From Fimbriosthenelais zetlandica (taxonomy: Eukaryota): DNA of 64,000 nt. The DNA is taken from positions 25,420,001 through 25,484,000 of the forward strand of contig OZ365112.1 in NCBI GenBank assembly GCA_977030845.1, written 5' to 3'. Below are positions 61,801 through 64,000 of this stretch, piece by piece (position 1 is the first letter of the stretch; each line of letters starts with the position of its first letter). The position numbers are program-made.

Positions 61801-64000
61801 GAAGAGGACAAAATACAACATGCACTATTGTAAGCAGCTAGGAGATGGGGTGAAGTATTGGAATAAATTTTAATCTGGAGTTAAAAGAAGGGGAATAAAT
61901 CTTGTAGATGGTAGAAAATGAGTCATGCTCAATGACACTGAGATCCACGGATCGAGGGGAGATGCAGACACTAGTAGTGAGTTAACTTATGGACATCTTT
62001 TATCAAGTAAAACTTCACCTTCTCACTTTTCTCCATCTCCATCCCCATCAGCCACATCAACACTCCTCCTCCCCTACACAACACACCTTCCCTTCCACAA
62101 GATCACCCCCTTTACCCCAGTTTCCATGGCAACAAAGACATTGAGTCCCGCCAGCTCGGGTGCACCCCCATTCCTCTCTCTCGCTCGGTTCCCCTGGCGC
62201 TTTCCCTTACTCCATGCCCCAACTCTCAAAGTTTTGTAAACTTCTCCTCCTCGTAACCTACCTCCCTCATCAGGCTCTGTGACCGTCAGTAACATCCTAT
62301 CATTGAACTTTTGTTACTTGGTAACGTCCTATGTAATGTTATGGTTGCTATGGTGGTTTCCAAGACGATGGTACTCAACGTACATCCATGTTGGTCACTG
62401 GTTTCCTTGGCAATCGGCTGGACACGCTGGGATTCTACTCCCTTCACCCTTCTCCACTACTACAACAACCCACCCCACAGTCATGTGACACACCGACCCA
62501 GTTACCAGGGCAACCATCGGTCGTCTGCTACCGCATTCCCAGCTCCACACTGCTGGTTACCAGTAGACAGCCGCCTCAAAAGCCCTCCAGCTCCGACGAT
62601 AAACCCAAACTAATGTTTAGAGCTTGATAAACTATTGAGGGAAAGTTCAGGGGAAGTGGGTAAACCCCTCCAGAACAACTCCATAGGTGGAAAAGCAAAT
62701 AGATCTAGGTGCTCCTTGAGTGGACTGGGTCGGTCTGGGGGCCAGCTCCCTCCCAACTTCCGTTCATATACCACCAGTATGAATCCCTATTGGGGGAAGG
62801 GGAGGAGGGGTGAACAAATTCCAAAAGCTACAGGGGGCCCGAGACCTCCTGGATACCTCCTCGGGTGGTGGGGGCTACAGGCCCTGAAGTTTTGCCCTGA
62901 ACGAAAAGAAATGGGACCTTCTTGTTGTTCAGGCCCTTTGGTCAAAGGGCACACGGACCACATATCCTGAAGGGCCTAAACAAGTAATTGTTTGTACACT
63001 CCTTTGTCCAGCCATATGATTGTCCGGTAAAATTACCAGGGAAAGGAGATAAGGGGAGATAAGACAATGTACATTCTGAAATATTAGAAAGCCTGAGATA
63101 TTGTAGACAGCTGTAAGAGATAAAACGGGAGAATATGAAGAAGTATGACTTATTGTGTACGGGTGTCTACTAGGCTGCTGCTGCTGGACTTAATAGGCAT
63201 CCAATGAAGCTTTAAATTCTCATTTGTCACAGCAAATAACCCCTTTCTTCGGTCAGGGAATACAAAGGATTTCTAGTCCCAAAGGAACTACCAAGTGATG
63301 ATTAACGAGTCAAGGGTGGTAGAAGGGAATAAACACTCCAAGTATCAATTAGGAGGTGAAAGTTTTGGGTTGAAGAAATCAGCAAAACTATTCTTAGACA
63401 TGACCCTCTTGCTTGAATACTTTCACAGTGGGGAGAGTAAAGTGCAGCCGACATTTCTAAAGAATGCAGGGAGGCTGGGATGTGTGGTCTTTCATAAGCT
63501 TACATATGATTAAACAATTCCATCTTTGATACGTTCAGACAATTTGTTAATGGGCTGTAATTGCACTAATTGTGAAGTAATACTCAATAGATTTTCCAAT
63601 AATGTTCCGGAAACCTATTAGTGATCCACTACACGACATTCAGAAGTACTCAGATGAAAGGTTGAAGTGTGTAGAAAGATTAGTCGGCAATCATTATGGA
63701 AGGATAGTTTTCCCCTCTGCCCTCTTGAAATGAAAACCACCTTGTTCACACTAACAAGGATTCCTTAACACTTTTAGAGCAGGCTGAACAAATATACACC
63801 AGTCAGAATGACATATTTCAGACTTGAGGCATTCTCCTCACTCAATGACACAGTGGGATGGTTTCCTGTCCCCGCCATACTTGTGGTCGACAATTGGGCA
63901 AAATCTGAAAGGGTGTACCAGGCACAACCCTGAAGGGAGAGCAGACCAAATCGGGCTTATCTTTTGAAGCAATGGTCATGCAAGACAACATGAGTCAGTC

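What the first reader, a model, noticed from the sequence alone, without database searches (positions are those of the whole stretch)
62120..62514. RFX X-box cluster suggests the ciliary transcription program drives Gli
Seen: four full and one half X-box-like sites in 400 bp, flanking a short - strand exon (ATG 62295, MLLTVTEPDEG, G|GTAGGT donor at 62261) that is in phase with the next Gli exon and completes the ORF. Established: RFX factors bind GTNRCC-N0-3-RGYAAC and control ciliary genes; vertebrate Hedgehog/Gli signalling depends on cilia, whereas in Drosophila it largely does not. Inference: direct RFX input into Gli in this invertebrate would be a regulatory link between ciliogenesis and Hedgehog output that I do not know to be described.
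Basis: partly seen in the sequence, partly recalled or inferred. Interest (0 to 1): 0.65.

Follow-up and report, generated by a model that had tools for sequence, protein, structure and literature searches.

The report
RFX-site cluster at Gli 5' end
A tight, clearly non-random cluster of binding motifs for RFX transcription factors sits at the likely 5' end of an invertebrate Gli gene, which suggests, but does not prove, that RFX regulates the Hedgehog effector directly.

Summary
The motif observation holds. Three near-perfect palindromic X-boxes (62120, 62401, 62501) lie within 400 bp. That compares with 0.02 expected, and 0 of 5000 local shuffles reach three. After masking tandem repeats, GTTGCC is the only one of 960 GC-matched palindromes that clusters this way. 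The cluster is not a repeat, tRNA, Rfam RNA or Pfam-coding sequence.

The gene on the minus strand is a spiralian-type Gli. More X-boxes lie in its 5' introns at 59.6, 55.8 and 52.6 kb.

The proposed first exon is in phase as stated. It is, however, one of 139 ATG/phase-1-donor combinations upstream of exon 2, and no homology supports it. The TSS is unknown.

"RFX binds here and acts on Gli" is a reasonable hypothesis (about 0.5). "The ciliary programme drives Gli" is weaker (about 0.2), because X-boxes serve all RFX classes. I could test neither conservation nor expression. My searches found no paper describing direct RFX-to-Gli regulation.

The parts
62501..62514 (.). X-box GTTACCAGGGCAAC (palindrome-like). 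Exact match to GTNRCC-N2-RGYAAC. Lies 206-219 nt upstream of the candidate ATG.
62556..62561 (.). X-box half-site GTTACC (GTTACCAGTAGACA); the right half is poor.
62401..62414 (.). X-box GTTTCCTTGGCAAT. Two mismatches to GTTGCCnnGGCAAC. Fits the degenerate consensus RYYNYY N1-3 RRNRAC.
62344..62369 (.). Two overlapping weak X-box-like sites (minus strand ACCACCATAGCAAC and ATCGTCTTGGAAAC). They fit only the most degenerate published consensus.
62313..62325 (.). X-box GTTACTTGGTAAC (spacer 1). Lies 18-30 nt upstream of the candidate ATG.
62279..62293 (.). X-box-like GTGACCGTCAGTAAC (spacer 3), lying inside the candidate coding exon.
62262..62295 (-). Candidate first coding exon: ATG at 62295, peptide MLLTVTEPDEG plus 1 base, phase 1. 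Unverified.
   Evidence: In phase with exon 2. One of 139 alternatives. No homology support.
62255..62261 (-). Candidate splice donor GTAGGT(T) following GAG. Matches 7 of 9 positions of MAG|GTRAGT.
62286..62303 (-). Out-of-frame upstream ATG and 5-codon uORF (ATG ATA GGA TGT TAC TGA) overlapping the candidate start codon.
   Evidence: read directly
62188..62193 (.). X-box half-site GTTCCC (GTTCCCCTGGCGCT), in the candidate intron 1.
62120..62133 (.). Best X-box: GTTTCCATGGCAAC, 1 mismatch to the perfect palindrome. Lies 129-142 nt downstream of the candidate donor.
59601..59641 (.). Pair of X-boxes 27 bp apart (ATCACCCTAGCAAC and GTTTCCATAGCAAC), about 0.9 kb upstream of exon 2.
58473..58730 (-). 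First recognisable Gli exon (contains ETVDRGVGPTP). Phase-1 acceptor, donor TAG|GTGAGT.
55830..55843 (.). Intronic palindromic X-box-like site GTTGTCAGGACAAC.
52346..52622 (.). Second group of X-box-like sequence in a Gli intron. GTTTCCATGGGAAC at 52586-52599, flanked by further AGCAAC, GGAAAC and GGCAAC half-sites. Several 500-bp windows starting between 52301 and 52551 each hold 6 half-sites.
42148..55160 (-). Remaining Gli exons: SUFU-site exon with SYGHLS, C2H2 zinc-finger exons, and an 884-906 aa last exon with polyQ/His-rich tracts.

Best explanation
The 62.1-62.56 kb stretch is a homotypic cluster of RFX (X-box) binding sites. It forms a cis-regulatory module at the 5' end of a spiralian Gli gene.

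Most likely mechanism: dimeric RFX proteins occupy the three to five good palindromes and several half-sites, and act on a nearby Gli promoter. The further X-boxes in the 5' introns (59.6, 55.8, 52.6 kb) may contribute.

Shown: the motifs, their non-random clustering, the absence of repeats or coding sequence, the identity of the gene, and the phase compatibility of the short ATG segment.

Inferred: that RFX binds; that Gli is the target; the sign of the effect (activation or repression); which RFX class is involved; and that the TSS and first exon are here.
For: - Strict consensus: 3 of 3 window hits fall in 62279-62514.
- Published Drosophila consensuses: 3 of 10 restricted sites (GYTRYY N1-3 RRHRAC), 3 of 5 sites (RTNRCC N1-3 RGYAAC) and 7 of 94 degenerate sites fall in 62100-62600. 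Uniform expectations are 0.08, 0.04 and 0.73 (consensuses from PMC2375033).
- Shuffle tests: 0 of 5000 local shuffles give >=3 sites.
- GC-matched real-sequence control: GTTGCC is the only 1 of 960 that clusters.
- No repeat family, tandem repeat, tRNA, Rfam or Pfam match in the region.
- Of the 8 sites with <=2 mismatches, 6 lie in non-coding sequence of the 5' 10 kb of the Gli locus (52586, 55830, 59628, 62120, 62401, 62501). One lies in a Gli coding exon (48014) and one elsewhere (7822).
- In human, X-boxes of validated RFX targets concentrate within -500..+500 bp of the TSS, both upstream and downstream (PMC5838959, section 9 read). This fits sites spanning about -220 to +175 around the candidate ATG.
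- Gene identity: best relatives are Gli of Novocrania, Patella, Liolophura and Urechis. Pfam C2H2 fingers are present. Ortholog exon matches run from 58683 down to 42160.
Against: - No binding, expression, TSS or conservation data exist. Everything about function is inferred from motifs in one sequence.
- Motif presence alone is a poor predictor for degenerate X-boxes (PMC2375033).
- The first exon is unverified: 139 alternatives, no homology, and several upstream ATGs.
- There is no TATA box, no CpG island (CpG o/e 0.52 and 0.35) and no neighbouring forkhead motif in the cluster.
- On unmasked real sequence the clustering is less exceptional: 90 of 4096 palindromes cluster equally, and the half-site ranks 104th of 1024.
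- The window ends 1.5 kb upstream, so an upstream neighbour cannot be excluded as the target.
- In mouse the known RFX3-GLI3 link is indirect, and Gli3 mRNA did not appear affected (PMC3315471).
Confidence: 0.5

Rival explanations
1. One reading: the ciliogenic RFX programme (the RFX1/2/3-type factor that switches on ciliome genes) directly drives Gli from a promoter at 62.3-62.5 kb. Gli is then co-expressed with cilia, and Hedgehog output is tied to ciliogenesis in this animal.
For: The evidence is the same X-box cluster and the in-phase ATG exon. Palindromic, high-quality X-boxes are the type reported as over-represented among dRFX-regulated ciliary genes (PMC2375033). When cilia entered Hedgehog signalling in Bilateria is stated to be an open question, and annelids keep a vertebrate-like set of ciliary Hh components (PMC9695228, passages).
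Against: - X-boxes do not distinguish ciliogenic from other RFX classes (recalled knowledge).
- No FoxJ1/forkhead motif lies in the cluster.
- The exon and TSS are unverified.
- In the one spiralian tested (planarian), interference with the cilia-linked genes studied does not disrupt the Hh pathway, as summarised in PMC9695228.
- The mouse RFX3 effect on GLI3 is indirect.
Confidence: 0.2
2. The cluster is a genuine RFX-bound module, but not the Gli promoter. It may be a distal enhancer of Gli whose TSS lies beyond 64 kb. It may instead belong to another transcription unit, such as an upstream or divergent gene or a non-coding RNA.
For: Only 1.5 kb lies upstream of the cluster in the window. 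Core promoter signals are absent. The ATG segment has no independent support. Residues 1-48 of the orthologs match nothing in the window, so the true first coding exon could lie outside it.
Against: - No Pfam family was found in any of the 10 stop-to-stop ORFs tested between 61922 and 63513 (1, 9).
- Functional X-boxes far from a TSS are described as the exception in human (PMC5838959).
- Additional X-boxes are spread through the Gli 5' introns, which points to Gli as the regulated locus.
Confidence: 0.2
3. The motifs are not used by RFX. They are either a decayed mobile-element or duplication relic, or sites for some other factor. A third possibility is a chance cluster that the reader noticed because many motif families could have been seen.
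For: On unmasked real sequence, 90 of 4096 palindromes show an equal cluster somewhere in the window, and the half-site ranks 104th of 1024. No conservation test was possible.
Against: - 0 of 5000 shuffles reach the observed cluster.
- After repeat masking, GTTGCC is the only 1 of 960 GC-matched palindromes that clusters.
- The flanks of the sites share no repeat unit.
- The sites are correctly spaced inverted half-site pairs, not just enriched hexamers.
Confidence: 0.1

Closest known systems
X-box promoter motifs of RFX/DAF-19/dRFX target genes (ciliome genes of C. elegans, Drosophila, vertebrates)
   Same: The imperfect palindrome is the same (GTNRCC N0-3 RGYAAC; Drosophila GYTRYY N1-3 RRHRAC). 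The sites lie close to a candidate start codon, and palindromic high-quality sites are present.
   Different: Known targets usually carry one or two X-boxes (recalled). Here 4-5 good sites plus half-sites lie in 450 bp. The gene is a signalling transcription factor, not a structural ciliary gene. Conservation and RFX dependence, the criteria used in those studies, were not testable.
Vertebrate RFX3/RFX4 - cilia - GLI3 processing axis
   Same: It links RFX factors with Gli activity.
   Different: In the mouse the link is indirect, running through ciliary genes. Gli3 mRNA did not appear affected in Rfx3-/- telencephalon (PMC3315471, passages; the RFX4 part is recalled). Here the proposal is direct transcriptional input at the Gli locus.
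MHC class II S-X-Y module bound by the RFX5 complex
   Same: It uses an X-box bound by an RFX family protein (recalled).
   Different: That is a single X-box with fixed-spacing X2 and Y (CCAAT) partners in a vertebrate immune context. I did not scan for Y boxes, and the module is not expected in an invertebrate.
Spiralian Gli genes (Novocrania anomala Gli, Patella vulgata GLI4-named, Liolophura sinensis GLI3-like, Urechis unicinctus Gli)
   Same: The gene matches in its zinc fingers, its SYGHLS SUFU-site exon, the ETVDRGVGPTP N-terminal block and the C-terminal exon, with 43-57% identity over about 30% of the last exon.
   Different: No close relative is in the databases (best 57%). The N-terminal 30-40 residues are not conserved, so they cannot place the first exon.

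Membership tests
RFX-regulated X-box cis-regulatory module | Sequence matches the X-box consensus (inverted half-sites GTNRCC / RGYAAC with a 0-3 nt spacer) | tested here: met
   There are 3 exact matches (62279, 62313, 62501) and 2 near-perfect palindromes (62120, 62401). These also match published Drosophila consensuses.
RFX-regulated X-box cis-regulatory module | More sites than chance and not part of a repeat | tested here: met
   0 of 5000 shuffles reach the cluster. GTTGCC is the only 1 of 960 GC-matched palindromes that clusters after masking. No repeats were found. The unmasked controls are weaker.
RFX-regulated X-box cis-regulatory module | Location close to the TSS of the regulated gene (human: -500..+500 bp) | tested here: inconclusive
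   The sites span about -266 to +175 around a candidate ATG. The TSS is unknown and the exon unverified.
RFX-regulated X-box cis-regulatory module | Conservation of the X-box at the orthologous gene in related species | not testable with these tools
   No eukaryotic genome collection was available. The contig collections for metagenomes and viruses were closed, and genome contigs holds only bacteria and archaea.
RFX-regulated X-box cis-regulatory module | RFX occupancy and RFX-dependent expression | not testable with these tools
   This needs ChIP, DAP-seq, EMSA, knockdown or a reporter.
Gli/Ci zinc-finger transcription factor gene | Five C2H2 fingers, the SUFU-binding SYGHLS region and orthology to Gli proteins | tested here: met
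   Pfam zf-C2H2_15 6.3e-21 and zf-C2H2 6.6e-6. SGSYGHLSAG occurs in ORF 48558-48992. Top named hits are spiralian Gli proteins, with E down to 6.9e-91. tblastn gives a collinear exon series. Individual fingers were not counted.
Interspersed or tandem repeat / mobile element | Other copies in the window, tandem structure, terminal repeats or transposase coding | tested here: not met
   No repeat family overlaps 62.0-62.6 kb. TRF finds only a 20-bp TCTCCA run at 62030-62049. There are no Pfam hits. Copies elsewhere in the genome could not be searched.

The most novel reading that the evidence does not exclude
Gli is a direct, selected target of the ciliogenic RFX factor in a spiralian. It would be switched on together with the ciliome through a multi-X-box promoter and intronic X-boxes. 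That would imply that Hedgehog transduction is coupled to cilia at the transcriptional level outside deuterostomes, and would give a handle on whether the cilium-Hedgehog link is ancestral to Bilateria.
Probability: 0.15. Interest if true: 0.7.

Novelty: new member of a known kind. Interest (0 to 1): 0.4.

Why it matters
When and how cilia became part of Hedgehog signalling in Bilateria is described as an open question. Spiralians are almost untested apart from planarians (PMC9695228, passages).

A direct RFX input into the only Gli gene of a spiralian would be a simple, testable regulatory link between the RFX programme and Hedgehog output. It would differ from the indirect, cilium-mediated link known in mouse (PMC3315471).

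My five literature searches and the passages read found no report of direct RFX regulation of a Gli gene. ChIP-seq target tables in supplementary files were not visible to me and may list such binding in vertebrates.

As it stands, this is a motif-based prediction at one locus.

Tried and rejected
- **Homology to place exon 1.** Ungapped BLOSUM62 scans of ortholog N-termini were run against all six frames of 58731-64000. One search used 5 orthologs and one search used 13 relatives. A 'VTEP' match between the exon-1 peptide and fragment P0044, seen by eye, scores below that noise, so I rejected it.
- **Word-based search with exon 2** (lengths 'longer'): no hit.
- **Representatives search with exon 2.** It gave 9 hits with E between 2.4e-8 and 8.4e-4. 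Six of the 9 look by eye like read-through translations of genomic DNA. None is informative about exon 1.
- **tblastn of Novocrania and Liolophura Gli against the window.** Residues 1-48 are unmatched.
- **Repeat, tandem-repeat, tRNA and Rfam explanations for the cluster:** nothing found.
- **Coding explanation.** Pfam found nothing in 10 ORFs across and upstream of the cluster, at E<=0.01 for one and E<=1 for nine. The only rows were two non-significant ones (E 0.25 and 0.17).
- **Co-motifs.** No Gli site (<=1 mismatch), no TATA and no forkhead core in 61900-62800, except TATTTGC at 62695.
- **The site at 48014** was discounted because it lies in a coding exon (codons of LLTRQ).
- **Literature.** Searches for a described RFX-to-Gli link and passages in PMC6761261, PMC13729650, PMC8051135, PMC11888390 and PMC7498320 were not relevant.

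Full report
**What is there**

The window carries no N. It is eukaryotic, intron-rich DNA with GC of 33-51%. The minus strand from about 58.7 kb down to 42.1 kb encodes a Gli/Ci-type zinc-finger protein.
- The last exon is a single 906-codon open frame (42145-44865) with polyQ/His-rich tracts.
- The zinc-finger exons match Pfam zf-C2H2_15 (6.3e-21) and zf-C2H2.
- An exon carries the SYGHLS SUFU-site motif.
- The best named relatives of the last exon are Gli proteins of a brachiopod (Novocrania), molluscs (Patella, Liolophura, Pomacea) and annelids (Paralvinella, Urechis). Identity is only 43-57% over about 30% of the query.

The animal is therefore a lophotrochozoan with no close relative in the protein databases, and I cannot name its phylum. 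It is not human sequence.

tblastn of two orthologs gives a collinear series of exons: 58683-58537, 55160-54996, 49572-49264, 48884-48642, 48089-47937, 47589-47140, 46869-46396 and 44850-42160. Ortholog residues 1-48 match nothing in the window.

**The motif observation**

Scoring against the perfect palindrome GTTGCCnnGGCAAC with up to 2 mismatches gives 8 sites in the window, against 1.46 expected from 200 dinucleotide-preserving shuffles (maximum 5). Three of them (62120, 62401, 62501) fall within 400 bp. In 5000 shuffles of 62001-62600 the mean was 0.02 sites, and none reached three.

I then used the consensuses published for Drosophila (PMC2375033, passages read). The stretch 62100-62600 holds 3 of 10 restricted sites, 3 of 5 RTNRCC/RGYAAC sites and 7 of 94 degenerate sites. 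Uniform expectations are 0.08, 0.04 and 0.73.

Half-sites GTTNCC/GGNAAC number 9 in 62101-62600, against a window mean of 0.92 per 500 bp. This is the densest 500 bp in the window.

**Controls on real sequence**

Shuffles flatter a motif in heterogeneous DNA, so I also asked how often any palindrome does this in the real sequence.
- Unmasked, 90 of 4096 six-base palindromic motifs show 3 or more sites in 400 bp.
- Unmasked, the half-site's clustering ranks only 104th of 1024 patterns. The 25 top-ranked patterns that the script printed peak in microsatellite, tandem-repeat, low-complexity or polyQ-coding stretches. The patterns ranked 26th to 103rd were not listed.
- After masking Tandem Repeats Finder arrays and requiring non-overlapping sites, 33 of 4096 remain. 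Most of these are AT-rich. GTTGCC is the only one of 960 motifs with the same GC content.

The cluster itself shares no repeat unit with anything in the window and is not tandem. It contains no tRNA or Rfam family. No Pfam family matches any ORF across it. I take the observation as confirmed.

**The exon**

The next Gli exon starts at 58730 after ttccttccag, with two bases completing a codon. The phases therefore match, and the junction codon would be GAC.

This is weak evidence, for five reasons.
- Between 58731 and 64000 the minus strand offers 139 ATG-to-phase-1-GT combinations.
- The N-terminal 30-40 residues of Gli are not conserved among spiralians. Neither 5 orthologs nor 13 relatives give above-noise similarity to any frame upstream of exon 2.
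- An out-of-frame ATG sits 8 nt upstream of the proposed start (62303, a five-codon uORF). Further ATGs lie at 62389, 62484 and 62517.
- There is no TATA box and no CpG island. CpG o/e is 0.52 for 62001-62500 and 0.35 for 62501-63000.
An 11-residue peptide is too short to search alone.

The strongest indirect argument for a nearby TSS is the cluster itself. In human, X-boxes of validated RFX targets concentrate within -500 to +500 bp of the TSS, on both sides (PMC5838959, section 9 read).

Of the 8 sites with up to 2 mismatches, the breakdown is as follows.
- One (48014) is inside a coding exon and is explained by its codons.
- One (7822) is far away.
- The other six lie in non-coding DNA of the 5' 10 kb of the Gli locus: the three in the cluster, 59628, 55830 and 52586.
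- 59628 has a second X-box 27 bp away, at 59601.
- 52586 has further half-sites within about 250 bp.

All three window matches to the C. elegans-style consensus GTHNYY-AT-RRNAAC (recalled) are among these six. This spread favours Gli as the regulated locus.

**How it most likely works**

RFX proteins bind X-boxes as dimers (recalled). A run of good palindromes and half-sites from about -266 to +175 around a candidate start would give high RFX occupancy at or next to the Gli promoter. Intronic X-boxes are possible auxiliary elements.

My estimates:
- About 0.5 that an RFX protein binds here and regulates Gli.
- About 0.2 that the module is RFX-bound but is a distal enhancer or serves another transcript. 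The window ends 1.5 kb upstream.
- About 0.1 that RFX does not use these sites.

- X-boxes are common to all RFX classes (recalled).
- No forkhead site accompanies them.
- In the only spiralian tested functionally, the planarian, interference with the cilia-linked genes studied does not disrupt the Hh pathway, as summarised in PMC9695228.
- In mouse, RFX3 affects GLI3 indirectly, without visible change in Gli3 mRNA (PMC3315471).

**Comparison and novelty**

The module looks like the X-box promoters of RFX target genes. It meets the sequence and non-randomness criteria. Position relative to a TSS is inconclusive. Conservation and RFX dependence were not testable.

It differs in site number and in the kind of gene. 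Five full-text searches and the passages I read produced no report of direct RFX regulation of a Gli gene.

I file it as a new, predicted member of a known kind of element.

**What stayed unchecked**

- Other copies of the sequence elsewhere in this genome.
- The upstream neighbour.
- All expression and binding data.

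Noticed in passing
window 52346-52622: A second group of X-box-like sequence lies in a Gli intron. GTTTCCATGGGAAC sits at 52586, with AGCAAC, GGAAAC and GGCAAC half-sites nearby. Several 500-bp windows there each hold 6 half-sites, the second densest spot in the window.
   Followed up: partly
window 59601-59641: Two X-boxes lie 27 bp apart (ATCACCCTAGCAAC and GTTTCCATAGCAAC), about 0.9 kb upstream of the first recognisable Gli exon.
   Followed up: partly
window 42500-43600 (-): The last Gli exon contains long polyQ and (H/Q)MSPQQ-type repeats. 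These produce direct-repeat families D5 and D9 and many spurious degenerate X-box matches.
   Followed up: no
window 3127-11389 and 21076-21243: An interspersed repeat family of about 95-150 nt has 6-8 diverged copies sharing the core AATCAGAGGGAGCCGTATACGACACCTCAAG. It is probably a SINE- or MITE-like element.
   Followed up: no
window 1101-1226, 22131-22394, 29304-29537, 26988-27146, 27578-28647, 48299-48422: Simple and tandem repeats:
- (CATT)n and (CATC)n microsatellites.
- A pyrimidine-rich 32-bp array, which explains the GC-skew dip at 28-30 kb.
- An 18-bp array.
- Tandem units of about 330-400 bp.
- A 33-bp array in a Gli intron.
   Followed up: no
window 16162-19514 (+): Long open frames rich in Ser, Arg, Asp, Glu and Pro (616 aa and 209 aa) have no Pfam match. 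They are probably exons of a low-complexity, SR-like nuclear protein gene on the plus strand.
   Followed up: partly
window 29938-30102: A small cluster of TGTCAC/TGTCAG-type dyads (TGTCAGTAGTGACT next to AGTCACTACTGACA) lies beside the 29.3-29.5 kb tandem array. It is the only other GC-balanced palindrome cluster in the window.
   Followed up: no
P0040, P0042, P0044-P0047 (protein hits): Several unnamed database proteins matching Gli exon 2 look like read-through translations of genomic DNA. They end just after the ...DPRNGL...LGK position where this gene has its donor, which suggests that this intron position is conserved across species.
   Followed up: partly
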